Of a stretch of DNA of 64,000 nt, positions 13,424 to 64,000 are shown piece after piece. The DNA comes from Candidatus Peribacteria bacterium (lineage in GTDB: Bacteria > Patescibacteriota > Gracilibacteria > Peribacterales > Peribacteraceae): positions 5,189 to 69,188 of the forward strand of contig SICN01000002.1 of the NCBI GenBank assembly GCA_009691405.1. Direction: 5' to 3'. The notes under the pieces were generated by a model. That model did not search any database. It worked only from the letters and a program-made list of their open reading frames with translations, and was not told the origin of the DNA. How positions within the stretch are numbered: the first letter of the stretch is position 1; the number at the start of each line of letters is the position of its first letter. The translations under genes were made by a program, and so were the position numbers.

Positions 13424-13433
13424 GAGAGGAAAA

Positions 13434-33354: not shown

Positions 33355-33710
33355 TGCATTGCAGGATAACCGTTTTTGCTTTCCCAAGCGAGGTCGATGC
33401 GCTCGCCAGCGGAATTTCGGCAACCTCGGCTCTCGTGATCGGTTGATTGAGACGTCGAATGCTCATCGGAATCGCATTGGCAGAAGAGAACGTCTGGACA
33501 TAAAGCGCATACCAGCGCGGGTCCTGCGTATCGCCCTGTTCCATGCTGATCCGGAGAACGCGAGTGATCATCTTGGCTGCCTCGACGAAATTGACGGCGC
33601 GTGTCTTCCATGAAGGGAATGGGGAAGGGATAGAGACAAAAGAGAAGACGGGTAGGAACGGAAACTCTTACGAAGAAAGCGTCTTCTTCCGCCGCACACA
33701 AAGCAGCGCG

Positions 33711-33739
33711 TTGACACAATGATGTTTTTTGGACAAAAT
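33711..33739 (+). promoter_or_regulatory. Sigma-70-type promoter TTGACA-17 nt-CAAAAT, 8 nt upstream of ATG 33748 (leaderless-type)
   Basis: Reads TTGACAcaatgatgttttttggaCAAAATccttcactATG. Confidence 0.5.
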
Positions 33740-33747
33740 CCTTCACT

Positions 33748-34878: not shown

Positions 34879-34918
34879 TGGGTCTGTAAATATTGCAGAG
34901 ATCGACCATGCTGACGAT

Positions 34919-43087: not shown

Positions 43088-43930
43088 ATGCACTATGCCG
43101 ACCGCCTCGCTCTGCGCATCAAGAAAACTTCCCCCGTCTGCGTCGGGCTCGATCCAATGCTTGCATCACTGCCCGAAGGAATCGAGAAGAGCCCTGCCGG
43201 TGTTGAGAAATTCTGCAAAGGGATCATCAATGCGGTGAAAGACACTGCCTGTTCGGTAAAGCCGCAGCTTGCGTACTTCGAGCTTCTCGGATGGGAAGGG
43301 ATGAAGGTGTTTTTCGAAATCTGCGCGTACGCGCAGAAGCATGATCTGATCGTGATCGCGGATGGAAAGAGAAACGATATCGGATCAACCTGCGAAGCGT
43401 ACGCAGAAGCATATCTCGGAAAAGAGAAACCGATCGATGCGCTCACGATCTCTCCGTACCTCGGCTCGGACGGCATCACGCCATTTGTGAAGGCATGCAT
43501 GAAGAATGACCGCGGAATCTACGTGCTGGTGAAGACAAGTAATCCAAGTGCCGGGGAACTGCAGGATCTTCCAACCGGCGATGAAGCCGTGCACGAGCAT
43601 CTCGCACAACTTGTTGAGAGCTGGGCGTCGGTGAGGATTAGCGAAAAGAGTTCTCTCTCGTGCATCGGTGCCGTGGTCGGTGCGACGTATCTGGAGGAAC
43701 TTAAGTATCTTCGCACACTCATGCCACACGTTCCGTTCCTGATCCCAGGTTACGGAGCGCAGGGCGGAACGGCTCTCGATTGCAAAGCAGGATTCCTACC
43801 CAACGGCACGGGTGCGATCGTAAACGCGGCGCGCTCGATCATTTACGCTTCCAAAGAAAAAGATTGGCAGAAAGCGGCTGCAAAGACTGCAGAATCGATG
43901 GCAGAGGAACTGCAGAAAACGCTCACCTGA
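43088..43930 (+). CDS. pyrF: Orotidine 5'-phosphate decarboxylase (type 2)
   Basis: ATG 43088 gives MHYADRLALRIKKTSPVCVGLDP. DGKRNDIGST and PGYGAQGG are present. The track ORF start at 42872 lies inside comM. Confidence 0.85.
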   Translation: MHYADRLALRIKKTSPVCVGLDPMLASLPEGIEKSPAGVEKFCKGIINAVKDTACSVKPQLAYFELLGWEGMKVFFEICAYAQKHDLIVIADGKRNDIGSTCEAYAEAYLGKEKPIDALTISPYLGSDGITPFVKACMKNDRGIYVLVKTSNPSAGELQDLPTGDEAVHEHLAQLVESWASVRISEKSSLSCIGAVVGATYLEELKYLRTLMPHVPFLIPGYGAQGGTALDCKAGFLPNGTGAIVNAARSIIYASKEKDWQKAAAKTAESMAEELQKTLT

Positions 43931-45581
43931 ACTTCGTTCCGGGTGCGAGCGGAGAGCTCCCCTCCACCCACTTGAAATTGCCGGCCTGATCCGTCCACTG
44001 AACGCTGCCGAACTCCGACGGTGAACCGGCCTGATCCAGATTGATTTCAAGCGTGTTTCCCGTTGATCCGCTGCGCACTGCGATGTCCCCGCGCACTTCC
44101 AGCATCAGAGGTTTGTCTGCAGGCAGAACAGCAATCGAGTCGAGATTCGGACAACTGAGGATGTCCGATCCCTCATTGAAGCTGCAGGAAACGGAGACAG
44201 CGGAACCGGAAGTTTGGACATGCCAATTTCTGACGGACACAGTGCCCGCGGAGAGAACGGCAAATGTCAGCTGCTTGAGGGACAGTGTTTTCCCTGGGAG
44301 CGCGCTGCCGCTGAAACTGAAAGCACTGACGAGTGTGCTGGTACCGGAAACGAGAGGAGCGGAGACCGGTGATACGCGGGCCACGGCTGTGATGCGTCCG
44401 AATGACGTCTGATGCTTGGGAAACGGTGCGGGAACGGGCACATTGATCGTTTCCTTGGTCGACTCTCCATAGTACGTCACCGAGAATGTCCGGACTTCGA
44501 GGAGCTGCTCGGAGGAACCACCGGTGTCGGTGCCGCGAATATTCGCACGCAGGACAAGCTGTTGCCGGCGACCGGCGGGAATCTGATACCGGTCGGCACC
44601 CGTGAGTTGGACTTCGTAGGTCTGGAGGTAGTCGGTCGTATCGCTCGTGGCTCTGCGTCGGAGAGTCGCAACGAGCTTCCCCGAATCCGCAGTGACGAGC
44701 TCCAGTGTGTCGAGGGAGGCAACGGCAGTCACCAGTTTGACTTGAGCGGAGAGGATCGAAACGTTTTCGGCCGTGTTTTGAATCGTGAGATCAGCAATCG
44801 CATCCGAGGTCCGGCCGACAATGAGAAAATGACTGACCGGAGGCAATGTGAAGAGTGCTGCCTGTGAAACGGAAGAGGAAGAGCTGCTCATCTCCAACGA
44901 CGAAGACGACGATACCGGACTGCTGCTGACACTGGATGAGAATGATGGAGAAGAGACAGGAGACGCATACTGACCGGCCTCCGCGAAACGGAACTCGGAA
45001 AGTTGCCCTTCTGATTCTGCGAAAAACGCAGCTGTGAGGCGGGCTGTAAGACCACGGGTCAGTGGTGTATCCAAATCAATCGTTACGGGGAGATCCACAC
45101 CTTTTTTTGCCGCAGCCTGATAGTAAGATTCTGCCCAATGACCGGAAGCCGGCGTCACCTCATACCCAAACAGCAGTGAGAGTATTTTGAGTGCTTCGCC
45201 GTAGCTCACGATATCTTCGGGATGGAAGCGGCCATCGGTGTATCCGGCCACGATGCCATCGGCGTACGCCGTGCAGATGAATAGAGCGAACCACTGATGC
45301 TGCACGTCCGGAAAACAATCAGCAAGCGTCGCCAGTACTGCTCCGTCGACTGTCATCATCGCCATCTTCAGAAATTCTGCGCGGTTGATCTGGCGCGAGA
45401 GCCCGAAGAATCCGTTGCCGTATCCTTGCACAATTCCTTCGCGGCTCAGCATATTGATGCCAGCTGCCTCGGGACTGCTCGGACGAACGTCTTTGTAGAG
45501 CGTCCCCGGCTCGATTGTCAGGGCAAAAACAACAGTCGGAGCAAGAACGAGTAAGAGAAAAGCGAGTGTGAGTTTGTGCAT
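43923..45581 (-). CDS. Secreted SLH-domain surface (S-layer-associated) protein
   Basis: Signal peptide MHKLTLAFLLLVLAPTVVFA. Three SLH-like repeats (e.g. FPDVQHQWFALFICTAYADGIVAGYTDGRFHPEDIVSYGEALKIL). A Ser-rich linker and then a beta-rich C-terminal region. Confidence 0.75.
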   Translation of the reverse strand: MHKLTLAFLLLVLAPTVVFALTIEPGTLYKDVRPSSPEAAGINMLSREGIVQGYGNGFFGLSRQINRAEFLKMAMMTVDGAVLATLADCFPDVQHQWFALFICTAYADGIVAGYTDGRFHPEDIVSYGEALKILSLLFGYEVTPASGHWAESYYQAAAKKGVDLPVTIDLDTPLTRGLTARLTAAFFAESEGQLSEFRFAEAGQYASPVSSPSFSSSVSSSPVSSSSSLEMSSSSSSVSQAALFTLPPVSHFLIVGRTSDAIADLTIQNTAENVSILSAQVKLVTAVASLDTLELVTADSGKLVATLRRRATSDTTDYLQTYEVQLTGADRYQIPAGRRQQLVLRANIRGTDTGGSSEQLLEVRTFSVTYYGESTKETINVPVPAPFPKHQTSFGRITAVARVSPVSAPLVSGTSTLVSAFSFSGSALPGKTLSLKQLTFAVLSAGTVSVRNWHVQTSGSAVSVSCSFNEGSDILSCPNLDSIAVLPADKPLMLEVRGDIAVRSGSTGNTLEINLDQAGSPSEFGSVQWTDQAGNFKWVEGSSPLAPGTKFR

Positions 45582-51863: not shown

Positions 51864-54800
51864 TCAATTATCAATTTTCAATTCGTACTTTTTGATCGCC
51901 TCCTCCACTCGCCTCTCGAGGAGAGGGGACATTGTGATCGTCAGCCCGACCGGCAACACGTTCTCACCAATCTTCAGTTGCACTTTTTCATTTCCGGAAA
52001 ATGTCTCAAAAATTTCTTTGATATCCAAAAGCAATTGTCGTGGTGCGCGTGCTGGCAGATGAATGGTATGAATGGAAATCGAAGGATGTGTAGATGGAAC
52101 AGGTGTCGGATTTTCGCCCGCCGTGTATGCGTCCAACCCGACTGCAGCCAGAGGCTCTTTTGTCTGCATCCCGTTTTGTATCCACTGCGTCAGCGGGCCT
52201 GCCAGAGCGTCTTCCGGTAAGGAGCTTTGGACCTCTTTCGTCGGGGTTTCCGACAATTCGACATCATCGGTTGCCGTCTCACTCACACCCTCACGACTGC
52301 GTCTCCTGCCTGCCGCACTCCAGTGGGTCGCTTCTTCCTCATTGAACATTCCTTCCTGCTTGGCTTTGGCAACCATCATCTCAATCGAGACTCTTTTCAA
52401 CGCCTCGGCTTTGAGCTGAGGTTGTCCCATGCGCATGTCGAGAGTCCCTGCGATCACCAGAATGGAATCCGGCTTTTCGAGAATGTCTTTGCACTGTGCA
52501 TGCACGCGCGGGAACAATGTCACTTCCATGCGACCGGTCGGATCTTCGATGGTGAGGATCGCCATCGTGTCACCCTTCTTTGTGTGGATGATCTTCGTCT
52601 GCTCGACGATGCCGGCAACCATGATCTTTCGATTCATATCATCTCCCGTAAGACTGTCGATGAGACGCGCCTTCTTGCTGATGTACTTCTTGAGACCCGC
52701 AAGCGGATGACTGGAAACGTAGAGCCCAAGCGTTTCTTTTTCCCAGATCAATTTCTTGTACGCGCTTGCCGGTTCTGTGTGATCGAATTCGATCCCGGCT
52801 CCCGTGCTGGCGCTTCCCAAAGACTCGAACATGTCGCTTTGGGATGCGCTCTTGTCTCCTGCCGACTTGCTGAACTCCGCGATTTTCTCATACTGGGCGA
52901 CAAGCATCGCACGTTCGCCGAGCGAATCGAACGCTCCTGATTTTGCGAGTGATTCCAGCAATTTCTTGTTGAGCAGTTTGCTTGGAACTCTGAGCGCAAG
53001 ATCCTCGATGCTCCCAAACGGTGTGCGATCTTTGCCGTCCGCGCCATCGCGAATCGACAGAATCTGACGAATGGAACTTTCCCCGACTCCTTTGATGCCA
53101 AGCAGTCCGAAACGGATCTTCCCGTTCGGGAGAGACGTGAAATGCGCAAGCGACTCGTTGATATCCGGCGGCAACACGTCGATTCCCATCGCTCGCGATT
53201 CTTCGATCTCGATGGCGATTCTGTCGGTATCTCCATCTTCGCTGCTTAAGAGTGCCGCCATGAAATCCGTCGGATAGTGAGCTTTGAGGTACGCGGTTTC
53301 GTACGCGATGCGCGCGTAGCAGGCTCCGTGTGATTTGTTGAATCCGTAGTTCGCAAACGGTGTGATGACGTCATCGAAGAGGGTCATCGCAAGCTTTTCC
53401 GTGTACTTTCTTGCGACCGTTCCTCGGATGAATTTTTCGCGCTGGCTGTCGAGTTCTTTCTTGATCTTCTTGCCGATGGCACGGCGGAGAAGATCCGCTT
53501 CCCCGAGCGAGAATCCAGCAAATACCTTCGCCATCTCGAGGATCTGCTCTTGGTAGATACCAACGCCGTACGTCGGCTTCAAGATCGGTTCCAAGTCCTT
53601 GTGAAGATATGTCACCTCTTTCTCCCCGTGTTTGCATTTGATATAATCGGGGATCTTATCCATCGGACCCGGTCTGTAGAGAGACACCATGGCCGTGATG
53701 TCGTCGACGGTTGTCGGTTTCAGTTGCTTCAAGTACCTGCGCATGCCGCCGGATTCGAGCTGGAAGACGCCCGTCGTCTCTCCCCTGGAGAGAAGCTCAA
53801 ATGTTTTTTTGTCATCCGTCGGAATCAAAGCAATATCAATCTTCGTTCCATGCATGCGCTCGATGATCAGGAGTGCCGTCTGAATGATCGTAAGATTTTT
53901 GAGTCCGAGGAAATCCATTTTGAGAAGCCCAAGGGATTCGAGGGGCTTGGCATCGTACTGCGTGATGACGATATTCTCGTCCTTCGGGGCTCGCTGAAGA
54001 GCGGTGTAACGAACGGCAGGCTCCGGCGTGATGACGACGCCGCAAGCATGCACGGACACGTGACGCGCTTTGCCTTCAAGCTTGAGGGCAATATCTAAAA
54101 TTTTTCTGTAGGTATCGTTCCCTTTGATGCCATCCAAAAGCTCGTCCGTGAGAAGTGCGTCTTTCAGTTCCGTCCCCGGTCTGTCGGAGATGAGTTTTGC
54201 AAGCGCGTTCATTTCCGCAAACGACACACCAAACGCTCTGCCGACATCTTTCACCGCGGCGCGAGCAGCGAGCGTTCCGAATGTGCAAATCTGAATTACG
54301 CGATCGGCACCGTACTTCTGGCGTACGTACTCCAGCACTTCATCGCGACGCGTGTCGGCGAAATCGATGTCGATATCGGGCATGCTGATGCGTTCGGGAT
54401 TCAAGAACCTCTCGAAAAGGAGCCCATGCTCGAGCGGATCGAGTGTCGTGATGTCGAGCACGTAACTCACGATTGATCCCGCTGCAGACCCTCGTCCCGG
54501 TCCCACGGTGATCCCGCGACGCTTCGCTTCGGCGATGAAGTCGGCAACGATTAGGAAGTAGCCCGAGAATCCCATATCTTTAATGACACCGATCTCGTAC
54601 GTGAGGCGTGACCGGATTTCTTTCTCGCGCTCGGGATGTTTTGCGATGATGTGGGCGTATCGTTTTTGGAGTCCTGCTTCGCACTGCAGATTGAGGAGTG
54701 ATTCTTCCGTTTCGCCTTTCTTCACGGGGAAACTTGGAATCTTGTACTGCCCGAAAGGAATCGTGACATTGCAACGCTCCGCAATGACACGAGTATTTTC

Positions 54801-55595
54801 AAGTGCCTCCGGCACATGCGAAAATGCCGCCTTCATCTCCTCGAAAGGCCGCATCGAGAAATCACTGTCACGCATGGTGAAGCGTCCGGTATCCGACACG
54901 TTCGAGTTCTTCTGGATGCAGAGGAGAACATCGTGCGCCTCGGCGTCCTCCGGCCTGCAGTAATGACTGTTGCAGGTTGCGACGAGGGGAACGCCATACT
55001 CTTTTGAAGCACGTATCAGTTGTTGGTTTACTTCGGACTGACCGGGAACGTTCGGCAAATCCATCAATTCAAAGTAGAAATTTTCTTTCCCAAAAAACGA
55101 TTGATACTGCGTAACCAAAAGTTTCATCCTCTCCGCATCGTCCGCCATCGCCGCCTGAGGGATCGCCCCGCTGATCGGACCCGAAAGCGCAATAAGTCCT
55201 TTGCCGTACTGCTTTAGGAGCTCGGCATCGACACGCGGTTTGTAGTACATGCCCTCGAGCGCCGCCTTCGTCGCAAGCTCGAGAAGGTTGTGGTATCCCT
55301 CTTCGGTGGAGGCGAGAAGAACGAGAGGGTACCTGCGAGTATCGACTCCGCTCTCCTTATCGAAACGCGTTCGGGAGGCAACGTAGGTTTCGAGCCCGAG
55401 AATCGCCTTCAACCCATGGGCTTTGCAGGCTTTGTAGAATTCGATGAGTCCATACGTATACCCTTTGTCTGCAAGACCGACTGCAGAAGACCCAAGTTCT
55501 TTGGCTCGAAGCACGATCTCCTCGGGGGTCGGAACCGCCTCGAGAAGGGAGAATGTACTGTGGCAATGCAGGTGAACAAAATCAGATGGTTTCAT
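51864..55595 (-). CDS. dnaE: DNA polymerase III alpha subunit
   Basis: 1243 aa. PHP domain FVHLHCHSTFSLLEA, palm/fingers blocks (PDIDIDF, GLLKMDFLGL), an OB fold and an extended C-terminal tail. Confidence 0.97.
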   Translation of the reverse strand: MKPSDFVHLHCHSTFSLLEAVPTPEEIVLRAKELGSSAVGLADKGYTYGLIEFYKACKAHGLKAILGLETYVASRTRFDKESGVDTRRYPLVLLASTEEGYHNLLELATKAALEGMYYKPRVDAELLKQYGKGLIALSGPISGAIPQAAMADDAERMKLLVTQYQSFFGKENFYFELMDLPNVPGQSEVNQQLIRASKEYGVPLVATCNSHYCRPEDAEAHDVLLCIQKNSNVSDTGRFTMRDSDFSMRPFEEMKAAFSHVPEALENTRVIAERCNVTIPFGQYKIPSFPVKKGETEESLLNLQCEAGLQKRYAHIIAKHPEREKEIRSRLTYEIGVIKDMGFSGYFLIVADFIAEAKRRGITVGPGRGSAAGSIVSYVLDITTLDPLEHGLLFERFLNPERISMPDIDIDFADTRRDEVLEYVRQKYGADRVIQICTFGTLAARAAVKDVGRAFGVSFAEMNALAKLISDRPGTELKDALLTDELLDGIKGNDTYRKILDIALKLEGKARHVSVHACGVVITPEPAVRYTALQRAPKDENIVITQYDAKPLESLGLLKMDFLGLKNLTIIQTALLIIERMHGTKIDIALIPTDDKKTFELLSRGETTGVFQLESGGMRRYLKQLKPTTVDDITAMVSLYRPGPMDKIPDYIKCKHGEKEVTYLHKDLEPILKPTYGVGIYQEQILEMAKVFAGFSLGEADLLRRAIGKKIKKELDSQREKFIRGTVARKYTEKLAMTLFDDVITPFANYGFNKSHGACYARIAYETAYLKAHYPTDFMAALLSSEDGDTDRIAIEIEESRAMGIDVLPPDINESLAHFTSLPNGKIRFGLLGIKGVGESSIRQILSIRDGADGKDRTPFGSIEDLALRVPSKLLNKKLLESLAKSGAFDSLGERAMLVAQYEKIAEFSKSAGDKSASQSDMFESLGSASTGAGIEFDHTEPASAYKKLIWEKETLGLYVSSHPLAGLKKYISKKARLIDSLTGDDMNRKIMVAGIVEQTKIIHTKKGDTMAILTIEDPTGRMEVTLFPRVHAQCKDILEKPDSILVIAGTLDMRMGQPQLKAEALKRVSIEMMVAKAKQEGMFNEEEATHWSAAGRRRSREGVSETATDDVELSETPTKEVQSSLPEDALAGPLTQWIQNGMQTKEPLAAVGLDAYTAGENPTPVPSTHPSISIHTIHLPARAPRQLLLDIKEIFETFSGNEKVQLKIGENVLPVGLTITMSPLLERRVEEAIKKYELKIDN

Positions 55596-55685
55596 ACATG
55601 GCGATGGAGACTTGCCCCGCGAAGCTCTTCGAGAGCGAAGTGGGGTGAACGAATTCCGAGGACTTCATGGGCGTAGCTTACACCT

Positions 55686-57359
55686 TTAGAAACTCGGTGC
55701 GCTGGAGGAAGGAGGCGGAGGCGGCAAAGGTACGCCGCAACGAATTTCCTCGGGATCACCCAGAGGACTTTGGGTGCCACTACAAAAATCTGCACTTTCG
55801 AACCCGTTTCTGCAAAAGCATTTGTCTGCCAATTGTTCGTCCGTGTACCTGCCGGAAACGTACGGGTGGCAGTACGGATTGAAGGACCTCTTGGCGATGG
55901 AATCGAGCAGATCGTTGCAATGACCGTCGACGCAGGAGCGGCGGAGGAAGTAGGCGACACTCGGAATGTACTCATTCGGGAGGAATCCTTCCGTGACATC
56001 CGAGAGTGCTTTCACCGCATCTTCAAGAGGCTTTACCGCCTCGAGAGTCCTTTCGTAGGAATCTCGAAAGATCGCATCGGTGGTTCCGATATGCCTGTCG
56101 CTGTCTTTCATAATTTCTTGAAGAGCTGCGGTCGCATTGAGCTTATACAGAAAGTGGGATTGCTGCTCCTCTTCATCTGGAGCAAGTTCCCTGGGGAGCG
56201 GACGTCCCGCACCGATGATCCCTTTCCGTTCATCGAATGTTCTCATCAAGACGAGCGGATTCGGGAACGTGAAGAAAAAGTCGTACGATGGACGGAACAG
56301 CGCGCCGATCGGCAGGACTCTCCCGAGAGGGGGAGTATACGTAAAATCTCCGCTGTCCAACTCTCGAAGATTCGGAGTCCGGAAATAGTCCGGGAATGCA
56401 CTCAAAACAGCATGGAATGAGGAAGCATCGGGGGGTGCTTGACCTTGCGGTTCGGGTGACGGCGGGAGGAGGCAACCGACTTCCGTCGCATGTGGAGGAG
56501 ACACCGCAGAACCTTCCAGTGGCTCTGGTGGCAGTGCGCCCGTAATCGCTGCGATTGCCGCTTCGATATTCCAGAGCGCCTGCCTGACGAGGGTATAGAT
56601 TTCGGATGCAAGCGCATCCGACTGATTTAAGAAATCTTTCAAATCATCATTCTCAATTTTCAGTGCGGGAGGAAGAGTATCTCTGATTCGGGAAAGAACA
56701 CTGGCATCACAGCCGTATGTCTTGATGTCCGGCTCAGCATCTTCATCCTGCGGCGGATCATCCGGCTGCGGCGGGAGGTATCCGATGAAGTGAGGACTAT
56801 AGTCTGTGGTATACGCGCACATCGGATCGTCTTGATGCACCTCATCGAGGAGCGGTTCCGCCATCGAATCGAAATCCGATGCGCTCTCGAATGGATAATG
56901 ATATCGAAGAAGGTTGCCGGAGAACGAAGAATCGACAGAACCTCGGAGGAAGATCTCATACGCATCGAGTGTGAAAGCGTACACGGTGCGAAGCACCATC
57001 GACGCTTTGATGTTGCACGCCTGCGTTGCCACCTCCATTGCATTTTGAATGGCATTCAACTTGTACTGAAACTGGAGTCGATCGCTCTCGATGCACAGTG
57101 TCCTTTCGCGCAAGGACTGGGATTCAAATCCGAGATCGAGCGCAATCCTGCGCTCCTGTCGAACCATCGAAAGATTGTTGGCGACTTCCTGGATATTCGC
57201 CTCGGTGTCACAGGAACGAGGGGGAAGTGGCAACCCATTGGCTGTTACAACACCACTATCGGCGCGCTCCAACGCATTCTGCACCCATGGAGACAATGCA
57301 GTGGCGAGAACCGTTTGCGGGAGGAGAAGGAAGCCGATCAGGATGAAAAAATTCTTCAT
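55686..57359 (-). CDS. Orphan secreted Cys-rich protein (557 aa), last gene of the five-gene operon
   Basis: Signal peptide MKNFFILIGFLLLPQTVLA, about a dozen Cys by eye, Pro-rich spacers and a PPPPPSSS tail. No motif recognised. Confidence 0.65.
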   Translation of the reverse strand: MKNFFILIGFLLLPQTVLATALSPWVQNALERADSGVVTANGLPLPPRSCDTEANIQEVANNLSMVRQERRIALDLGFESQSLRERTLCIESDRLQFQYKLNAIQNAMEVATQACNIKASMVLRTVYAFTLDAYEIFLRGSVDSSFSGNLLRYHYPFESASDFDSMAEPLLDEVHQDDPMCAYTTDYSPHFIGYLPPQPDDPPQDEDAEPDIKTYGCDASVLSRIRDTLPPALKIENDDLKDFLNQSDALASEIYTLVRQALWNIEAAIAAITGALPPEPLEGSAVSPPHATEVGCLLPPSPEPQGQAPPDASSFHAVLSAFPDYFRTPNLRELDSGDFTYTPPLGRVLPIGALFRPSYDFFFTFPNPLVLMRTFDERKGIIGAGRPLPRELAPDEEEQQSHFLYKLNATAALQEIMKDSDRHIGTTDAIFRDSYERTLEAVKPLEDAVKALSDVTEGFLPNEYIPSVAYFLRRSCVDGHCNDLLDSIAKRSFNPYCHPYVSGRYTDEQLADKCFCRNGFESADFCSGTQSPLGDPEEIRCGVPLPPPPPSSSAPSF

Positions 57360-57362
57360 GGG

Positions 57363-59213
57363 CTAGAGTCCGAACGTTTTGAAGGGTCCTGTCCATGGAC
57401 AGGCGGTCTGTGTCACCGGAGCGCGCTTCAGTTCCAGGAGCAAATTCGCCATCTGCCGAATGAACGTCGCCATGATCGCGAAAAGTTTCTGATCAACGGT
57501 GATCGTCTGGTCGAGCGCCGCTCTCTGTCCGATCTCGAGTGCGCGTGAGAGGAAATCGTTCTGATTCGCCGTCACTTCCGATGCGTTGTCGAGAAGCAGC
57601 TTCATCGTCCCCGCGGCGTCTTGCGTGGGTGATTTCACCAATGTCTCAGCACGAAAAATGCAATCGCCAAACATGGGTCTCGGTGCATCGCCATTTTTGA
57701 GACAGTACTCGCGTTCAAAATCCTGCACGAGCAGGTGCCCCATGTACGCGGGCACTGTAAATGACGAGTCGTGTGCGGCCTCGGTATAGAGACCGAGTTG
57801 GGGATCGGCTCGAATGCATGAAAGATAGGGTGATGTCGCTTCGTTCGTGACGACCGTATTGCGATTCGGAACCAACGTATGACCTTTCATTGACTGCGCA
57901 AGGCAGTGACTCACATAACAAGCATGTGTGGTGATGTCATCTTTGTACTGCACCAATGCCTCCGGTGTGCAGACTTTTGTGGTATCGATGGGGATAAGAT
58001 CCGGATTCAGGCGATTTTGGTCTTCTGGATCGAGAAGGGGAGTGCCATCATCCTCATACAAATTGATGATGTCTGCACAAAGATCGGGGTCCGTCGTCGC
58101 TCTCGTGTCATCAAATGAGCATTCGACGAGAGAAATAGTGTCGGGATTCGTATTGTTGCACAGTGCCACAGGCACCGGCACTGTTCGGCAGAGGTACCCA
58201 CGCCTTCCGACCGTGCGACTGCAGAGAGGAGACCGAATAGGATGGTCGTCATCGACAGTGATTCCTGGGCCTGTATATTCGAAAGGATAGGCGAGCGCGT
58301 TCCCTCCCACATCTGGTTCAGCCATCACGGGATAGTTCTCCGCCCTCTTGATGTCAAAACGGATGAAGTGCGGGGGATAGATCAACTGCAGCCCAAGGTC
58401 GTCTCTCCTCGCCCAGAACGCAACGTTTGGGATCTTTTTGAGAGACGGAGTTGAAAACTCTCCAACCTGTGTCGGATCACCGGTAATCTCTAAGGCTTCT
58501 GCAATTTCAGCCAAGGTATTCCCGACGCTTGTTCCAATCGTCGTAAATCTTGGATCTTGTTCATTATCATCTCGGAAATATCCGAAATGAAAACGGAGAA
58601 TGACTTTTTCCAGATCCTCAGGACTGAACAATGCTAGTTGTGAAGCAAGTACATCGATTTTACTGTCGAGTGTGCTGCCTGCAGTGACGACCGTCCCATC
58701 CCACGGGATGAGCCCCTCTTCACCGGACCATACACGCTTGAGAAGCAAGCTCAGTGTCCCGAGCGCCACCGGACGGTGAGGTTCATCCGCGATGGAAAGT
58801 TCCGCACCGTTTGCCGCCATCAAAAGATCGTCCCCGAGACTTTCGGCATCTTTCTCCGCCGTGACGAGAGAGAGAATGGAACTCCGAAGATCAAGACACC
58901 CGGTATCCGAAGCACCCACGACAAATTCTATCTCCTGACCGGAGGTGTCCAGTTTCCCTTGACAAAGACCGTCGTCGTCTCCCGTCCAGAGAATGCCGAG
59001 CACCGCGTTCTTGATATCGGCATACGAGAGATCGATGCCGTTCTCGCCCCATGTCCGCATTTCATTGATTACGAAATCCATGAGCTTATTGCGGGGGTTC
59101 GCACTCTCGCCTGTTTGCTGTAGATCATCGAAATACAGGTCGAACACGGACGCCAAGCCCGCCTCCGGGAGAAGGACGAGGCACGCCAAGAAGAGGGAAA
59201 GGAAGCGCTTCAT
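57363..59213 (-). CDS. Orphan secreted Cys-rich protein (616 aa)
   Basis: ATG 59213 (ATGA overlap with the upstream stop) gives the signal peptide MKRFLSLFLACLVLLPEAGLA. The track ORF extends to 59513 inside the upstream gene. Confidence 0.65.
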   Translation of the reverse strand: MKRFLSLFLACLVLLPEAGLASVFDLYFDDLQQTGESANPRNKLMDFVINEMRTWGENGIDLSYADIKNAVLGILWTGDDDGLCQGKLDTSGQEIEFVVGASDTGCLDLRSSILSLVTAEKDAESLGDDLLMAANGAELSIADEPHRPVALGTLSLLLKRVWSGEEGLIPWDGTVVTAGSTLDSKIDVLASQLALFSPEDLEKVILRFHFGYFRDDNEQDPRFTTIGTSVGNTLAEIAEALEITGDPTQVGEFSTPSLKKIPNVAFWARRDDLGLQLIYPPHFIRFDIKRAENYPVMAEPDVGGNALAYPFEYTGPGITVDDDHPIRSPLCSRTVGRRGYLCRTVPVPVALCNNTNPDTISLVECSFDDTRATTDPDLCADIINLYEDDGTPLLDPEDQNRLNPDLIPIDTTKVCTPEALVQYKDDITTHACYVSHCLAQSMKGHTLVPNRNTVVTNEATSPYLSCIRADPQLGLYTEAAHDSSFTVPAYMGHLLVQDFEREYCLKNGDAPRPMFGDCIFRAETLVKSPTQDAAGTMKLLLDNASEVTANQNDFLSRALEIGQRAALDQTITVDQKLFAIMATFIRQMANLLLELKRAPVTQTACPWTGPFKTFGL

Positions 59214-60214
59214 TCGGGTCGAAGGGAATCGTCGGGGTCGTGAAGGGAAGTCACCGCATCCCAGATTTTCGGCATGCAACTGATCGTATCGGCGAGCAAG
59301 CCGAGCTCGTTTCGAAGATCGAGCGACGCACGCTGGAAACACACGAGTGATTTCGCATACGCATAGTTCAGTTCGAGCGATCGTAATGTATGAAATGTGC
59401 GGAGCACCGCGAGCCTCGCGCGCTGCTTCTCGCTCTCGATGCGCGCATAAAATGCCGTCAATCGAGTCGTAAACACTTCCTGCACATTCTCCGTGGGGCA
59501 TTCCTCCGCGCACATGGAGTCATCCGACGGTGTTGTGGCGCACGCGAGAACCTGCGTGATCTGCTTGCAGGTATTCGTCTCTTCATCGCAACAGAATGAA
59601 TTGGGGTTATCGACATCTCTGTTGATCGCCACCATCGAGTCGGCAGTCTGGCTGAACTCGGAAAGTTTGCATTCGTATTCGCGCACGAATTCCGCGACCA
59701 CCGAATTGAATGAGGCAAATGTGACGGGAAGCATTTTCGGGTCTCCTATCGCAGGTCGGTAGTACCAACCCGGCATTTCCTTCGCGAGTCCCGCCAGTGA
59801 GCCGATCCCTCCCTCCGTTCCGGGGACGCACGGCCAGGATGACGGAGCTTTCAGAAAGTCTTCACGCTCCCCGACAACACCCGAGATGCGCTTTCGGAAA
59901 AGGTCTGTCGTTTCTCGAAGCGTCTTCAAATTTGCAAACACGGTGCCTGTCGATGTGCATGCACGAGGGTCTGCACCTGACTCGAAGTACACGGAGGCCG
60001 CCGGAGGCAAGCCGACGATCGCTCCGCGGAGGAATCGTGACGAGCCTGCGATGATGCTTAAGATGAAGAGTAGAACAACAAGTGTCCGATGCTTATCCCA
60101 AAGCGAATGCCACTCACGCTTCATGCCGACAATGAAGGAAGATGTTTTCAAAATGGCACGAGAGGAGGAGTCATGTTGGATGTATCCGGTCGATCGCACT
60201 GACCGATAAAACAC
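59210..60214 (-). CDS. Orphan membrane-anchored Cys-rich protein (about 304-334 aa)
   Basis: N-terminal anchor TLVVLLFILSIIAGSS. The alternative ATG 60124 (MKREWHSLW) avoids a 66-nt overlap with the upstream gene. Confidence 0.6.
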   Translation of the reverse strand: MFYRSVRSTGYIQHDSSSRAILKTSSFIVGMKREWHSLWDKHRTLVVLLFILSIIAGSSRFLRGAIVGLPPAASVYFESGADPRACTSTGTVFANLKTLRETTDLFRKRISGVVGEREDFLKAPSSWPCVPGTEGGIGSLAGLAKEMPGWYYRPAIGDPKMLPVTFASFNSVVAEFVREYECKLSEFSQTADSMVAINRDVDNPNSFCCDEETNTCKQITQVLACATTPSDDSMCAEECPTENVQEVFTTRLTAFYARIESEKQRARLAVLRTFHTLRSLELNYAYAKSLVCFQRASLDLRNELGLLADTISCMPKIWDAVTSLHDPDDSLRPE

Positions 60215-60903
60215 GGGATCTCATGGAGCTTCCCGAGCATCGAGACCATATCGCGGATGGGTCTGATCACGAGATCGGGGAAATCTCCTTGAAGCCAATC
60301 GATGATCCCTGCCTTCTGAAGTGTGCTTCGGTAGCCGCTGTCGTAGGAAAATGCGAGCTTTAATACTGCTTTCTCGGCATAGAGACTCGTCTCCGACATC
60401 CCACTGCATTCGGTCTCCAAACCCAGTCGATCGGTCGGAAGGTATCCCGTATCGACGAAGCTGCAGGAAGGATAACTGTCGATTGTTTGTTCCACGCATC
60501 CCATCTGCTTGATCGTGAGTGATGTATTGGCATTCACGTCGAATGACTTCTTCATCGCAAGGCAGATCGCATTCGTTCTGCACCGAAGAACCCGATAGCT
60601 TTCGACGGCAGGCCACACGAGTTCCGAGGTAAGGCGCTGCTTCGTCCCAAGAATGCCTGTTCCGCTCTCGGGTGCCAGCCCACCGGTGAACACTTCGATG
60701 TCTTCTTCCCTGTTTTCCCGAGCACCGAAAACACGCGAACGGTACTCGTCGTGAATGACACTCATCCGATCAATGACATGTCGCCTGCAGCCATCAGGGG
60801 TCGCCGCATCGGCACTACGTGCGGATTCCGGACTCGACCACGGCAGGAAAACAAAAGCTGTAAGGAGAATGCCGGTGCCGAGAAAGAAAAGGCGAAGTCT
60901 CAT
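60148..60903 (-). CDS. Orphan exported Cys-rich protein (251 aa)
   Basis: Signal/anchor segment MRLRLFFLGTGILLTAFVFLP. ATGA overlap with the upstream stop. Confidence 0.6.
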   Translation of the reverse strand: MRLRLFFLGTGILLTAFVFLPWSSPESARSADAATPDGCRRHVIDRMSVIHDEYRSRVFGARENREEDIEVFTGGLAPESGTGILGTKQRLTSELVWPAVESYRVLRCRTNAICLAMKKSFDVNANTSLTIKQMGCVEQTIDSYPSCSFVDTGYLPTDRLGLETECSGMSETSLYAEKAVLKLAFSYDSGYRSTLQKAGIIDWLQGDFPDLVIRPIRDMVSMLGKLHEIPCFIGQCDRPDTSNMTPPLVPF

Positions 60904-63900
60904 AGGGAGGTCGTGGGACGGAGATCAATCTCGACGGGTGGAGTGAGCCAGGGGAAGAGGCGTTCCAACACGGGAAGCGTTGCATTTTCATATGGACTCT
61001 GCGAATCACTGCTTGGGAGCGTCGTGAATCTCAGTGTGTCTGCGATATCCGTAAAATCAGTATCAGCAGTTGGAAGGAATGTCGCCCATTTCGCAACGGT
61101 CGTTCTCTGGCCAGGGAGGAATGCGCAGATCACGTCTTCTTTACATTTGGGAACAGCGGGGAGCGGGAACTGGTTCCGTACACGGAGCGTTCTGCCTGCA
61201 AGATCCTCCGTTCTCTCGGGCAACCAGCGGGAATACAGTCTCGCAACACGTTCTTTCAAATCATTTTCGACATGAAGAATCCTTTCGGGGTCGCCTTTGT
61301 CGGGATTAGACGGAACGAGAACACTCTTGATGAAACGGCAGTACGAACCGCGCATATTGTTGCGATCGAGGCTGAAATTCGTTCCCTCATCCGCAACGAT
61401 TCCGTCATTCGATTCTTCTTCCCACTGCGACTCAAATTCCTGATCCCCGATCTGCGTACCGTCGATCATCACTCGGAACTTCATCAGCGTATCAATTGCT
61501 GCTGCGAGATCCATCGACGGAGGAATACCGAGCACTCTCTCGGCAGGAAGGTTCACCGTCGGTGCACTGAATTCATCAAAGACAGCGGCATCGGGGAGTG
61601 TTGGCAGCGACGGGAAATCTCCAGGGGCTTCCGGCTTCGTGCCGAGAAGTGGAGGGCGCGGCAATTTGATCTTCACCTGGATCGGCCAGAGTACTGGGAT
61701 TTTAAACTCCCCTCGTGCAGGAGCGAGGAACGAGAAATCGTAGAGCTGATCTTTCGGAGGATCGCCAATCAAATCTTGCAGGTCATCTGGAGGAACGTAA
61801 CCTGAATTTCTAGGTGAGCGGAGCGCAGCATCGCCCCACCATTTGTCGAGCAGTGAGTACACGGCGATCGAATATCGCATGTTGGAACACCACTGGAGCT
61901 GGCACTGATCCGCCTGCAACATCGAATTTTGAATATGCCTCCACACGCGTTTCAGTCTCAAGCGATCAGCATTCTTCATCGCAGCCTCCTTCAATTTCTG
62001 CGTGTTATCCTGATACCAATTCGCCATAAACCGGTCGATTTGTTTGAGAGGAGAAAGGAATCCGATCAGCTCTTTATCGAGTGCATTCCGAAGCTTGCGT
62101 TGGCTGAGGATGGCTCCGCTGTACTCTTGGAGTTTTGCAAGAATCGGATCAGCCTCCCCGGAAAAAGACGCTCGAGGAGGATTGGCGTTCTGTGCATCTG
62201 CGTCCTCAAGCTGCTTCCAGTGTTTCCACTCGAAAATCAATTTGTCGATCTCTCCCTTCGATGCCAAAGGCACGAGAATGGGGATGCGCACCTCGCTCAA
62301 AGGCATGATGTAACTCCGTTTGAATGTCGACAGCACATTCCCGATATCCTCGGGACCCGCTCGAAGTGTCAGCTCTACGGTGCCGTTTGGTTTTGAGACT
62401 TTCGCCTGCACGTATTGGAAAAGCGGATTGTCATCATCGAGTCCGGCGATAAAGCGCGCCGGCATGATGAGCCGAACGGTCGGTGCTCGCGTGAGCACGA
62501 GGAGTGCTTTCTCCTGTGCTTCCCAGTACGCACTCAAGCTCCGGTGATCGGCATCATCAAACATATCCGTACGGATGTTGTCGCGGACCGTCTTGCTCGC
62601 ACGTTGCTTCGCTTCAACAATCGAACCGATCACTCCCGTGATATCCCCGGGGTCGTCAAAATCCTTCTGCAATTCTTTGAGCTTCACGATATCGATGACG
62701 GAGAGATTCGTTTGATCATCGAGAACCCACGGATCCGCTGCGTTTCTAGAGGGACGCAGAGGATCGACCGGTGGGTCGGGGTCGGGGACATTCTCGAGCT
62801 GCTTATGCCCCACAAGATCAGGCCAGCCCTGCATCTCATTCGTGAGAACAAGTTCGCACTGCTCGTCGTTGTCTTTGCCTCCCCCGTCGCCTCTTCCGGC
62901 AGTCACCGTCGTCTGCGGATCAAAATCCGTAAGATCCTTGTTGGTCTCTTTGTAGTATTCATAACACTCTCCGCGAAGGGTCCCGAGTGCACCCGTTCCG
63001 AACCGCACATGCACTCCGGGTTGCATGAACCCCCCTGCATAGTGACGGTAAATCGAACTCGGGATGGACAGATGCTCTCCCGGCCTCTTCACATTCAGAA
63101 CCCCATACGGACCAAGAATGGTGATAACGGTCGTATACTCGCACTCGGTGATTTTGTTGTAGTGAAAGGGAAGCCAATCGGTACGACAAGTATCGTTTCT
63201 TGGGAATTCCACTGCGGCAGGAATTTCCGGTTTCCCTTCCTTGGTATCGATCATCGACGTCTCCATAATAGTATCGAAGATGCTGTATCGAGCACTCGTT
63301 CCGGTGCAGATGAACGTGTTGATGGGATCAAAACAGTACCGCTTTCTGGGGCGCGGAGGACATTTGTCATGCGGAATCGCCGAAACGGATTCGCAATCGC
63401 ACATCGATTGCACGGGGATATGGATGCCGGGAAGCTGCGACATCGCACGCCATGCGGAGGCGAGTTGTCTGCAATGCTTGGGCGTCGCGTTGTCCCAGCG
63501 GATGCACCAGTTGTACGGATTGATTTGTATTTTCCCATTTCCATCGACAAGCCTGACGGAACCGCCGTCGAAAGCAATGCAAGGGTCTGGGCCATCGCAC
63601 GGAGTGTTCTTGAAATCGATATTTTTATGGAGAATTTTATCGAGATCCTCGTCATACATCGTCTGAGCCTCCGTATGAGGTCCCGGAGGAACCGCAAGCA
63701 GATCTCCCGAGCTCGTGATGTACATATCGCACGCCGACGCGAAGCCAAAGGCGGTGTCGGGAAATTGAAACACTCCACGCGTGCCGATTCCCGTCGTCGG
63801 GGAGCCGAGAGGATTGACATTGTCGCGACCGGGAATAGCGATGGGATCCTCGGTACCGTCGGGATAATGAGCGTAAATCTCCGGAATCGGCACATCGCCT

Positions 63901-64000
63901 TGTACGGAATTGCCAATCACCTTTGCATCCGTGCCCCTTGCCCATCCTCCGCACTGCACCGTTTCTATATTGTCCTTCACTTCCTGCACCCCCGCTTGAA
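60900..64000 (-). CDS. Large orphan Cys-rich protein (>1030 aa), 5' end beyond the right edge
   Basis: The track ORF starts at GTG 63989, but the frame stays open to position 64000, so the gene is probably truncated by the window. No motif recognised. Confidence 0.65.
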   Translation of the reverse strand, partial: QAGVQEVKDNIETVQCGGWARGTDAKVIGNSVQGDVPIPEIYAHYPDGTEDPIAIPGRDNVNPLGSPTTGIGTRGVFQFPDTAFGFASACDMYITSSGDLLAVPPGPHTEAQTMYDEDLDKILHKNIDFKNTPCDGPDPCIAFDGGSVRLVDGNGKIQINPYNWCIRWDNATPKHCRQLASAWRAMSQLPGIHIPVQSMCDCESVSAIPHDKCPPRPRKRYCFDPINTFICTGTSARYSIFDTIMETSMIDTKEGKPEIPAAVEFPRNDTCRTDWLPFHYNKITECEYTTVITILGPYGVLNVKRPGEHLSIPSSIYRHYAGGFMQPGVHVRFGTGALGTLRGECYEYYKETNKDLTDFDPQTTVTAGRGDGGGKDNDEQCELVLTNEMQGWPDLVGHKQLENVPDPDPPVDPLRPSRNAADPWVLDDQTNLSVIDIVKLKELQKDFDDPGDITGVIGSIVEAKQRASKTVRDNIRTDMFDDADHRSLSAYWEAQEKALLVLTRAPTVRLIMPARFIAGLDDDNPLFQYVQAKVSKPNGTVELTLRAGPEDIGNVLSTFKRSYIMPLSEVRIPILVPLASKGEIDKLIFEWKHWKQLEDADAQNANPPRASFSGEADPILAKLQEYSGAILSQRKLRNALDKELIGFLSPLKQIDRFMANWYQDNTQKLKEAAMKNADRLRLKRVWRHIQNSMLQADQCQLQWCSNMRYSIAVYSLLDKWWGDAALRSPRNSGYVPPDDLQDLIGDPPKDQLYDFSFLAPARGEFKIPVLWPIQVKIKLPRPPLLGTKPEAPGDFPSLPTLPDAAVFDEFSAPTVNLPAERVLGIPPSMDLAAAIDTLMKFRVMIDGTQIGDQEFESQWEEESNDGIVADEGTNFSLDRNNMRGSYCRFIKSVLVPSNPDKGDPERILHVENDLKERVARLYSRWLPERTEDLAGRTLRVRNQFPLPAVPKCKEDVICAFLPGQRTTVAKWATFLPTADTDFTDIADTLRFTTLPSSDSQSPYENATLPVLERLFPWLTPPVEIDLRPTTSL

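What the first reader, a model, noticed from the sequence alone, without database searches (positions are those of the whole stretch)
55686..64000. Translationally coupled five-gene operon of orphan, exported, Cys-rich proteins immediately upstream of dnaE
Five consecutive minus-strand ORFs are packed tightly: 60900->64000 (partial, >1029 aa), 60148-60903, 59210-60214, 57363-59213 and 55686-57359. Two junctions are 4-nt ATGA start/stop overlaps (60900-60903, 59210-59213) and one is a 3-nt gap (57360-57362), so they look co-translated. The four complete products start with hydrophobic signal or anchor segments: MRLRLFFLGTGILLTAFVFLP, TLVVLLFILSIIAGSS, MKRFLSLFLACLVLLPEAGLA and MKNFFILIGFLLLPQTVLA. 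All are rich in Cys with Pro-rich spacers, which suggests disulfide-bonded extracytoplasmic proteins. Across roughly 2,800 codons I recognise no enzyme, pilus, secretion-system or adhesin motif. This is the largest block of unexplained, clearly organised coding capacity in the window, and it may form a lineage-specific cell-surface complex.
Basis: partly seen in the sequence, partly recalled or inferred. Interest (0 to 1): 0.75.

Follow-up and report, generated by a model that had tools for sequence, protein, structure and literature searches.

The report
Conserved exported five-protein module of Peregrinibacteria
Five tightly packed genes next to dnaE encode exported, disulfide-bonded proteins with no detectable relative of known function; the set is kept in the same order in every Peregrinibacteria (candidate phyla radiation) genome examined, so it is probably an undescribed core cell-envelope complex of this uncultured lineage.

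Summary
Five minus-strand genes (A >1032 aa in the window and 1071 aa in full, B 251, C about 304, D 616, E 557) are joined by two ATGA overlaps and a 3-nt gap. Each product has exactly one N-terminal hydrophobic segment.

The proteins are not strict orphans. The five genes occur in the same order, flanked by a divergent ssb, in all 26 Peribacteria/Peregrinibacteria species loci that span the region, with dnaE downstream in most. Six very distant relatives (22-41% identity) keep the same order. The A family alone has 209 clusters at 50% identity.

No protein matches Pfam, NCBIfam, PHROGs, PADLOC or PDB sequences. The AlphaFold models of A and D match no PDB fold, and A matches no BFVD fold. 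dN/dS is 0.05-0.11.

Cysteine counts carry a strong disulfide signature. A has an even count in 102 of 107 diverse homologues. C always has an odd count. The second odd subunit is E in Peribacteria and D in the other Peregrinibacteria, so the five-protein total is even in 15 of 15 complete loci. Substitution rates covary among the five proteins but not with the flanking genes.

Best reading: a membrane-tethered, disulfide-linked extracytoplasmic complex specific to this phylum. Its role is unknown and is most likely structural in the envelope. Interest is moderate to high.

The parts
60900..64000 (-). Gene A. It is cut by the window end; the full gene is 3216 nt (1071 aa) and its first 115 nt lie beyond position 64000. 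The product is a secreted protein of about 117 kDa. It has a cleavable signal peptide, a beta-rich N-terminal half carrying 13 of the 16 best-conserved cysteines, a conserved linker that is poorly modelled (441-525), an alpha/beta domain, very long helices (620-746) and a Pro-rich C-terminus.
   Evidence: full length from the identical contig L001; 18 full-length homologues; 15 invariant Cys; AlphaFold2 model; 209 representative homologues
60148..60903 (-). Gene B, 251 aa. It is a small secreted protein. All 8 cysteines are invariant in 28 orthologues. The conserved C-terminal motif is IPCFIGQCDxPDT. Its start overlaps the stop of A (ATGA).
59210..60124 (-). Gene C, 304 aa from ATG 60124 (or 313 aa from TTG 60151). 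It is the only subunit with a positively charged N-terminal tail followed by an uncleaved-looking signal anchor, so it is the proposed membrane tether. Five core cysteines are conserved across the phylum, and Peribacteria carry an insert with 6 more. The mature Cys count is always odd. The C-terminal motif is SCMPKIWDAVTS.
57363..59213 (-). Gene D, 616 aa. It is a secreted, mostly helical protein with long helices at 106-142 and 533-597 and a Cys-rich middle region. It has 14 conserved cysteines (even) in Peribacteria and an odd number (15-31) in other Peregrinibacteria. Its start overlaps the stop of C (ATGA).
55686..57359 (-). Gene E, 557 aa. It is a secreted protein with 13 conserved cysteines (odd) in Peribacteria and an even number (8-20) in other Peregrinibacteria. 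It has a Cys-dense C-terminal region (476-541) and starts 3 nt after the stop of D.
55596..55685 (-). The 90-nt spacer between E and dnaE. It contains no terminator-like hairpin. In relatives the spacer ranges from a 1-nt overlap to about 250 nt, so dnaE may be co-transcribed.
51864..55595 (-). dnaE, the DNA polymerase III alpha subunit. It is the conserved downstream neighbour on the same strand. It is part of the syntenic block, not of the exported module.

Best explanation
The five genes are one co-transcribed, translationally coupled unit, possibly transcribed on into dnaE. Its products are exported by the Sec pathway and oxidised to disulfide-bonded proteins outside the cytoplasmic membrane.

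A, B, D and E carry cleavable signal peptides. C keeps an N-terminal transmembrane anchor. I propose that the four soluble subunits assemble on C into one membrane-tethered hetero-oligomer of roughly 300 kDa per protomer set. The assembly would be held together partly by long helices and by conserved segments that do not fold confidently as monomers. It would also be locked by one intermolecular disulfide from the unpaired cysteine of C to an unpaired cysteine in E (class Peribacteria) or in D (other Peregrinibacteria).

The module is single-copy, universal in the phylum and under strong purifying selection. It sits in a collinear housekeeping block (lspA-ftsW-murG-...-murB-ssb | ABCDE | dnaE). 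I therefore read it as a core structural element of the cell envelope rather than a variable adhesin.

Shown:
- The genes are real.
- The packing is tight.
- The products carry export signals.
- Order is conserved.
- The disulfide-type Cys pattern and the parity rule hold.
- No known homologue was detected.

Inferred:
- Physical complex formation.
- C acts as the anchor.
- The C-E or C-D intermolecular disulfide.
- A structural role in the envelope.
For: 1. Packing. ATGA overlaps and a 3-nt gap are present here, and junctions are mostly -4 to +5 nt across about 30 loci. Internal promoters or terminators do not exceed chance.
2. Export. Each protein has a single N-terminal hydrophobic segment. 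Orthologues of A, B, D and E have AxA-type cleavage sites, and orthologues of C have a basic tail followed by a TM segment.
3. Conservation. ssb | A-B-C-D-E is found in all 26 genome loci that span the region, all from Peribacteria/Peregrinibacteria MAGs, with dnaE downstream in most; the other 2 of the 28 loci are cut by contig ends. The same holds in six distant lineages. dN/dS is 0.05-0.11.
4. Disulfides. Invariant cysteines: 8 of 8 in B, 14 of 14 mature in D, 11 of 11 in C and 13 of 13 in E at 85% or more of sequences, and 16 columns in A. A has an even Cys count in 102 of 107 diverse complete homologues, with counts from 14 to 82 (p = 1.4e-24). An even-number bias in exported proteins is the established signature of disulfide-forming bacteria (Dutton et al. 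2008 PNAS, from memory). PMC4736985 reports one disulfide-bond-formation protein in Peribacter genomes.
5. Coupling between subunits. C is odd in 28 of 28. E is odd in 24 of 25 and D is even in 52 of 54 (96%) in Peribacteria. In the distant clade D is odd in 6 of 6 (15, 19, 23, 27, 27, 31) and E is even in 5 of 5. The five-protein total is even in 15 of 15 complete loci.
6. Evolutionary rate covariation. Pairwise distances among A-E correlate at r = 0.83-0.94. The partial r controlling for DnaE is 0.57-0.84, against -0.06 to 0.36 with the flanking SSB and Sua5.
7. Segments modelled with pLDDT below 50 are at least as conserved as confident ones. A 441-525 has identity 0.56 against an average of 0.49, and D 444-483 has 0.73 against 0.47. 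This is expected for partner-binding regions.
8. The five families show no paralogy to each other, so they are five distinct parts rather than a duplicated family.
Against: - There is no direct evidence of expression, localisation or physical interaction.
- The odd cysteines could instead form homodimers (C-C, E-E or D-D), bind metal or stay reduced.
- Rate covariation can arise from a shared selective regime, since all five are exported and fast-evolving. It can also arise from a non-linear relation to the slow DnaE clock. Only 13 taxa were used, and pairwise distances are not independent.
- The parity patterns amount to two clades for the E/D switch, although parity is held across many independent changes in count.
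- AlphaFold models are of mediocre confidence (mean pLDDT 62 and 67), so the absence of fold matches is weak evidence of new folds.
- Signal-peptide cleavage and the anchor status of C were judged by eye and by hydropathy, not by a trained predictor.
- The whole 20-kb block is collinear across the phylum, so conserved adjacency alone says little about function.
Confidence: 0.55

Rival explanations
1. The module is a host- or partner-attachment device, such as an adhesin or fibre tip complex, used in an episymbiotic lifestyle. It would be analogous to the surface adhesion complexes of other reduced-genome bacteria.
For: The proteins are exported, acidic (pI 4.5-5.4) and disulfide-stabilised. 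Peribacteria are predicted symbionts, and PMC4736985 proposed that their Cys-rich extracellular proteins mediate attachment. A and D vary greatly in length between lineages (853-1836 aa and 548-986 aa), with acidic low-complexity inserts. This fits a surface-exposed location.
Against: Adhesins normally vary between strains and are not universal. This set is single-copy, keeps a fixed order across the phylum, and has dN/dS as low as dnaE between close relatives. It is absent from the list of strain-variable or very Cys-rich proteins in Ca. P. riflensis (Table S4). No adhesin, Ig-like or lectin domain was detected.
Confidence: 0.2
2. The five proteins are functionally related but act separately. 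They could be secreted or wall-associated enzymes or chaperones, for example novel cell-wall remodelling factors co-expressed with the neighbouring mur/fts genes, and not subunits of one assembly.
For: The upstream block encodes lspA, ftsW, murG, a PPIase and murB. The window is rich in peptidoglycan enzymes. Operon membership alone does not prove a complex.
Against: No catalytic motif or enzyme family was detected: no HExxH, no CxxC, no Pfam or NCBIfam hit. The parity rule that links C with E or D is hard to explain for independent proteins. So are the strong mutual rate covariation and the conserved segments that are not modelled as monomers.
Confidence: 0.15
3. The module is the extracellular part of a DNA-handling function, such as DNA uptake or competence, linked to its neighbours ssb and dnaE.
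For: Its position between ssb and dnaE is conserved throughout the phylum. In some lineages dnaE starts within 0-20 nt of the end of E. CPR bacteria depend on scavenged nucleic acids (general knowledge).
Against: No DNA-binding, nuclease, ComEA/ComEC or pilin features were found. The entire 20-kb region is collinear, including unrelated genes such as gltX, a PPIase and murB, so adjacency carries little information. dnaE is inverted or separated from the module in some loci (L023, L024, L019) while the module stays intact.
Confidence: 0.05

Closest known systems
Giant cysteine-rich repeat proteins of Ca. Peribacter riflensis (DUF4215 / 'Myxococcus cysteine-rich repeat', pappalysin-like; Anantharaman et al. 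2016, PMC4736985)
   Same: They occur in the same lineage. They are signal-peptide-bearing, presumably disulfide-bonded extracellular proteins of unknown function. One such protein lies in this window at 39293-40933.
   Different: Those proteins have 5-11% Cys, are repetitive, average about 1650 aa, vary between strains and lie in a 14-gene cluster. A-E have 1.9-3.6% Cys and are non-repetitive. The five window proteins have no DUF4215 hit. They are universally conserved, and they are not listed in that paper's Table S4.
Chlamydial cysteine-rich outer membrane complex (OmcA/OmcB/MOMP)
   Same: This is a functional analogy only. Several envelope proteins from adjacent genes are cross-linked by intermolecular disulfides into a structural layer (established knowledge).
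   Different: There is no sequence or fold similarity. Chlamydiae are diderm, whereas CPR cells are thought to lack an outer membrane. There are five unrelated subunits here, and one has a membrane anchor.
Mycoplasma pneumoniae/genitalium adhesion complex (P1 with P40/P90, 'Nap')
   Same: It is an operon-encoded, multi-subunit surface complex made of lineage-specific large proteins in a reduced-genome bacterium (established knowledge).
   Different: No homology was detected. The Nap subunits are anchored by C-terminal TM helices and are not disulfide-rich. The module here has one N-terminally anchored subunit and four soluble ones.
Sortase-assembled pili, type IV pili, and SLH-anchored S-layers of monoderm bacteria
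   Same: They are exported, operon-encoded surface structures. Peribacteria encode sortase, type IV pilus genes and S-layer genes elsewhere in the genome (PMC4736985), and this window carries an SLH protein at 43923-45581.
   Different: The defining signals are absent from A-E: no LPXTG sorting signal, no class III pilin leader, no SLH domain.

Membership tests
Type IV pilins / pseudopilins | Class III signal peptide (G|F/M-T-L-I-E, N-methylation motif) at the N-terminus | tested here: not met
   The regex scan of the first 45 residues of all five proteins found none. Pfam and NCBIfam gave no N_methyl or pilin hit.
Sortase-anchored surface proteins / Gram-positive pili | C-terminal LPXTG-type motif followed by a hydrophobic segment and a basic tail | tested here: not met
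   LPxT[GAN] occurs in the last 60 residues in 0-1 of 26-29 orthologues per family. No C-terminal hydrophobic segment is present.
SLH-anchored S-layer proteins | S-layer homology (SLH, PF00395) domains | tested here: not met
   A-E have no SLH hit at E<=1. A different protein in the window (43923-45581) has SLH at E = 1.4e-18.
Type IV / type VII secretion systems | Recognisable VirB/VirD, EssB/EssC or WXG100 family components, including an ATPase | tested here: not met
   Pfam and NCBIfam gave no hit. The best PDB profile hit to EsxB has E = 0.41 over a helical stretch, which is noise. The module contains no ATPase or polytopic membrane gene.
DUF4215 / Myxococcus cysteine-rich repeat proteins (the Cys-rich giants of Peribacteria) | Tandem DUF4215 repeats and very high Cys content (>=5%) | tested here: not met
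   The five window proteins have no DUF4215 hit and contain 1.9-3.6% Cys. A single distant E orthologue (L035) carries a 'weak' precomputed DUF4215 hit.
Bacterial lipoproteins | Lipobox [LVI][ASTVI][GAS]C at the end of the signal peptide | tested here: not met
   No lipobox occurs in the first 40 residues of any of the five.
Disulfide-bonded exported proteins (a class, not a homologous family) | Sec-type N-terminal signal, conserved cysteines, and a bias to even Cys numbers in the mature protein | tested here: met
   (102 of 107 even, p = 1.4e-24)
Phage structural proteins or anti-phage defence systems | A match to PHROGs or PADLOC models, or presence in phage or plasmid records | tested here: not met
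   PHROGs and PADLOC gave nothing significant. tblastn of A against 50,697 phage records and of D against 72,556 plasmid records found no match. Foldseek of the A model against BFVD found nothing with E<1.

The most novel reading that the evidence does not exclude
The five proteins build a previously unseen, phylum-specific envelope machine of Peregrinibacteria made of five new protein families. Its subunits are covalently linked by an inter-subunit disulfide whose partner cysteine has moved from D to E (or from E to D) during evolution. The machine would be essential. It might replace extracytoplasmic scaffolds of cell-wall growth or division that CPR bacteria lack, or form the layer seen around CPR cells by cryo-EM.
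Probability: 0.3. Interest if true: 0.8.

Novelty: categorically new. Interest (0 to 1): 0.58.

Why it matters
CPR (Patescibacteria) bacteria make up a large share of bacterial diversity. Almost nothing is known about how their unusual envelopes are built, because the relevant genes are 'hypothetical'.

This module is a defined, testable candidate. It is five co-translated exported proteins that are universal and syntenic in one CPR phylum and under purifying selection as strong as that on dnaE. Their cysteine-parity pattern predicts a specific covalent link between named subunits.

It gives structural biologists and metaproteomics groups a concrete target. It also gives five new families to seed in Pfam or NCBIfam, and a marker cluster for Peregrinibacteria. 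The parity-switch analysis is a cheap, general way to infer inter-subunit disulfides from sequence alone.

Tried and rejected
1. Pfam, NCBIfam, PHROGs and PADLOC scans of all five proteins at E<=1 gave nothing. Per-member Pfam scans of 54 D and 25 E homologues, and of six long distant A homologues, gave only scattered single-member noise.
2. Sequence and profile searches of all five families against PDB sequences gave nothing below E = 0.1. The weak hits were helical or coiled-coil noise (SNAP-25, EsxB, nucleoporins).
3. AlphaFold2 models of A (pLDDT 61.6) and D (66.6) were searched with Foldseek. A was searched against PDB and BFVD and D against PDB. No match had E<1. Weak F-BAR, CheZ and flagellar-rod hits for D reflect long helices only and were rejected.
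4. Paralogy among the five families was tested by hhalign. All probabilities were below 10%, and the only matches were between signal peptides.
5. Pilin, sortase, lipoprotein, zinc-protease and thioredoxin-type motifs were absent.
6. A mobile-element origin was rejected. There are no phage or plasmid matches, and the GC content is the same as the rest of the window.
7. The internal promoter and terminator scan found nothing above the shuffled expectation.
8. The metagenome scan with the C profile added only 14 mostly close loci.
9. The literature search failed repeatedly with time-outs. The first DOI look-up and two supplement searches also timed out. Only PMC4736985 and its Table S4 could be read. 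A later description of this cluster therefore cannot be excluded.
Full report
**Observation.** The ORF listing finds five consecutive minus-strand ORFs at the reported coordinates:
- A: 60900 to the window end
- B: 60148-60903
- C: 59210-60214 from the earliest GTG
- D: 57363-59213 from ATG
- E: 55686-57359

Reading the junctions directly gives ATGA overlaps at A/B and C/D. D/E is TAG, 3 nt, then ATG. A 90-nt spacer lies before dnaE, with no terminator-like hairpin. Internal promoter-like and terminator-like sites do not exceed the shuffled expectation.

An identical public contig (L001) extends gene A by 115 nt. The full protein is 1071 aa and begins with a typical signal peptide. A divergent ssb gene lies upstream. 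Gene callers on that contig start C at ATG 60124, giving 304 aa. An in-frame TTG at 60151 would make a TTGA overlap with the B stop, as is seen at B/C in many relatives.

Each protein has exactly one strongly hydrophobic segment, at the N-terminus. Cys content is 2.39%, against 1.43% in annotated housekeeping proteins of the window.

**Source organism and conservation.** A has 18 full-length homologues at 39-62% identity in the 5.8-billion-protein collection, and one is named Candidatus Peribacteraceae. D has 56 homologues and E has 34. No homologue carries a Pfam domain, and every source name seen is 'hypothetical protein'.

A scan of one genome per species (GTDB) with the A profile returned 28 loci, all from Peribacteria/Peregrinibacteria MAGs. 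tblastn with the five proteins and their neighbours shows ssb(divergent) | A B C D E in the same order in all 26 loci that span the region. The other two loci are cut by contig ends. dnaE and sua5 follow in most loci. dnaE is inverted in L023, separated by an insert in L024, and not adjacent in L019, and the module stays intact in all three.

An exhaustive profile search of 1.84 billion representative proteins found 209 A-family clusters (190 at E<=1e-10), 850-1836 aa long, sharing a conserved core at profile positions about 290-825. Every named member is from Peregrinibacteria.

I fetched six of the most distant members. All show the same block: lspA, ftsW, murG, PPIase, gltX, murB, ssb(-), then A, B, C, D, E with 4-nt overlaps, then dnaE. 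Their positional B-E genes are detectably homologous to the window's proteins at 22-41% identity.

dN/dS against the closest relative (L007) is 0.053, 0.091, 0.111, 0.100 and 0.071 for A to E, against 0.047 for dnaE. The genes are therefore real, single-copy, phylum-wide and under strong constraint.

**No known relative.**
- Pfam, NCBIfam, PHROGs and PADLOC gave no hit at E<=1 apart from noise.
- Per-member Pfam scans of 54 D and 25 E homologues and six distant A homologues gave only scattered noise.
- Profiles of all five families against all PDB sequences gave nothing better than E = 0.12, and the weak hits were coiled-coil proteins.
- AlphaFold2 with family alignments gave mediocre models: A has pLDDT 61.6 and pTM 0.46, and D has pLDDT 66.6 and pTM 0.47.
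  - A has a beta-rich N-terminal half (65-424) and a low-confidence linker (441-525). These are followed by an alpha/beta domain and helices up to 59 residues long (620-746).
  - D is mostly helical, with 37- and 65-residue helices and a Cys-rich, poorly modelled middle region.
- Foldseek against PDB (A and D) and BFVD (A only) found nothing with E<1.
- hhalign shows no paralogy among the five families.
- Pilin leaders, LPXTG, lipoboxes, HExxH and CxxC motifs are all absent.
- Phage and plasmid collections hold no relative.

**Disulfide signature and a parity rule.** The cysteines are almost all invariant:
- B: 8 of 8 in 28 sequences
- D: 14 in 54 sequences
- C: 11
- E: 13
- A: 16 columns at 85% or more

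Among 107 complete-looking A homologues that are at most 50% identical to one another, Cys counts range from 14 to 82 and 102 are even (binomial p = 1.4e-24). Cysteines are therefore gained and lost in pairs, which is the classical sign of structural disulfides in exported proteins. PMC4736985 reports a disulfide-bond-formation protein in Peribacter genomes.

| Subunit | Peribacteria | Six distant Peregrinibacteria loci |
|---|---|---|
| A | even | even |
| B | 8 (even) | 8 in most, 18 in L054 (even) |
| C | odd in 28 of 28 (11, 7 or 5) | 5 or 7 (odd) |
| D | 14 in 49 of 54; even in 52 of 54 | 15, 19, 23, 27, 27, 31 (all odd) |
| E | odd in 24 of 25 (13, 17, 11) | 8, 10, 10, 12, 20 (all even) |

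In all 15 loci where the five genes are complete and cleanly delimited, the summed mature Cys count is even. The parity patterns are e-e-o-e-o (12 loci) and e-e-o-o-e (3 loci).

Alignment shows that the five core cysteines of C are shared by both clades. The Peribacteria-specific extra cysteines of E are C50 and C115, which probably pair with each other, plus C516 and C526 in the C-terminal cluster.

The simplest reading is one unpaired cysteine in C that bonds a partner cysteine located in E in one clade and in D in the other. Homodimer disulfides or free or metal-binding thiols are alternatives.

**Further indications of a complex.**
- Pairwise evolutionary distances of A-E across 13 taxa correlate with one another at r = 0.83-0.94.
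- After regressing out DnaE distance, the partial correlations remain 0.57-0.84. Those with the flanking SSB and Sua5 are -0.06 to 0.36. A shared selective regime and saturation could contribute to this, so I treat it as supporting rather than decisive evidence.
- Segments that AlphaFold cannot place as monomers are at least as conserved as the confident parts. A 441-525 has identity 0.56 against 0.49 overall, and D 444-483 has 0.73 against 0.47. This is typical of regions that fold on a partner.
- C is the only subunit with a basic N-terminal tail, a TM segment and no AxA site. A, B, D and E have signal-peptidase-type sites. In a cell thought to lack an outer membrane, soluble subunits need such a tether.
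- The mature masses are 117, 24.5, 33.8, 65.4 and 59.6 kDa, and all five are acidic with pI 4.45-5.4.

**Interpretation.** I conclude that this is a co-translated set of five Sec-exported, disulfide-bonded proteins. They most likely assemble on the membrane-anchored subunit C into a lineage-specific extracytoplasmic complex.

Its universality, fixed gene order, single copy and dnaE-like constraint argue for a core envelope role rather than a variable adhesin. The window's other envelope proteins, an SLH protein at 43923-45581 and a DUF4215 Cys-repeat protein at 39293-40933, are better candidates for the S-layer and for the strain-variable Cys-rich giants described by Anantharaman et al. 2016. 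That paper's Table S4 does not list this module.

Adjacency to ssb and dnaE probably reflects a collinear housekeeping block and not a DNA-related function, although dnaE may be co-transcribed. In relatives the E-dnaE spacer ranges from a 1-nt overlap to about 250 nt.

**Comparison with known systems and novelty.** All defining features tested for pili, sortase substrates, S-layers, T4SS/T7SS, lipoproteins, DUF4215 proteins, phage proteins and defence systems were not met (see the membership table). The nearest analogies are functional only: the disulfide-cross-linked chlamydial outer membrane complex and the operon-encoded surface complexes of mycoplasmas.

I rate the module as categorically new at the level of protein families and system. 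Three caveats apply:
- Its function is inferred.
- The structural models are of moderate quality.

**Scores.** Interest is 0.58. The most novel reading not excluded is an essential, phylum-specific envelope machine with a migrating inter-subunit disulfide. I give it a probability of about 0.3 and an interest of 0.8 if true.

Noticed in passing
window 16266-19802 (+): A 1178-aa ORF with no Pfam hit and no N-terminal hydrophobic segment. It is very rich in Lys and Glu. It lies in the only stretch of the window with lower GC (0.47-0.49) and strong AT skew (+0.27). It may be a large charged cytoplasmic or coiled-coil protein of unknown function.
   Followed up: partly
window 43923-45581 (-): A 552-aa protein with a signal peptide, two SLH domains (E = 1.4e-18), a Ser-rich linker and a beta-rich C-terminal part. 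It is a candidate S-layer or cell-wall-anchored protein.
   Followed up: partly
window 39293-40933 (-): A 546-aa protein with DUF4215 (Myxococcus cysteine-rich repeat) domains at E = 1.6e-14. It belongs to the class of Cys-rich extracellular proteins highlighted for Ca. Peribacter riflensis in PMC4736985.
   Followed up: partly
window 33186-36589 and 23309-24853: Four further ORFs have no Pfam hit at E<=0.001: 242 aa, 376 aa (overlapping on the opposite strand, so one of these two may be spurious), 556 aa and 514 aa.
   Followed up: no
window 10865-13453 (-): An 862-aa protein combining an N-acetylmuramoyl-L-alanine amidase domain (Amidase_2) with a SpoIID domain. This is an unusual fusion of two peptidoglycan-remodelling activities.
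   Followed up: no
L002, L005, L035, L036, L052, L053 (upstream of the module): The block lspA - ftsW - murG - PPIase - gltX - (small ORF) - murB - ssb(-) is collinear across even the most distant Peregrinibacteria examined. Gene order in this phylum is therefore unusually stable around the module.
   Followed up: partly
L023, L024 and L019 (downstream of E): These are exceptions to the dnaE adjacency. dnaE and sua5 are inverted in L023, about 3.5 kb is inserted between E and dnaE in L024, and no dnaE lies within 4.5 kb in L019. The five-gene module itself is intact in all three.
   Followed up: no
L033 13312-15482; L054 10159-11124; L017 2427-5765: Three oddities in relatives:
- D in L033 appears split into two overlapping ORFs, which suggests a frameshift or an assembly error.
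- B in L054 has 18 cysteines instead of the otherwise universal 8.
- A in L017 carries 47 cysteines with an unclear start.
   Followed up: no
distant A, C and D orthologues (L033, L036, L051): These orthologues carry long acidic or Gly/Ser/Asp/Glu low-complexity inserts and tails. Examples are poly-Glu/Asp stretches in A of L033 and a 100-aa acidic C-terminal tail on C of L036. One distant A homologue (P0217) has a weak collagen-repeat hit.
   Followed up: no
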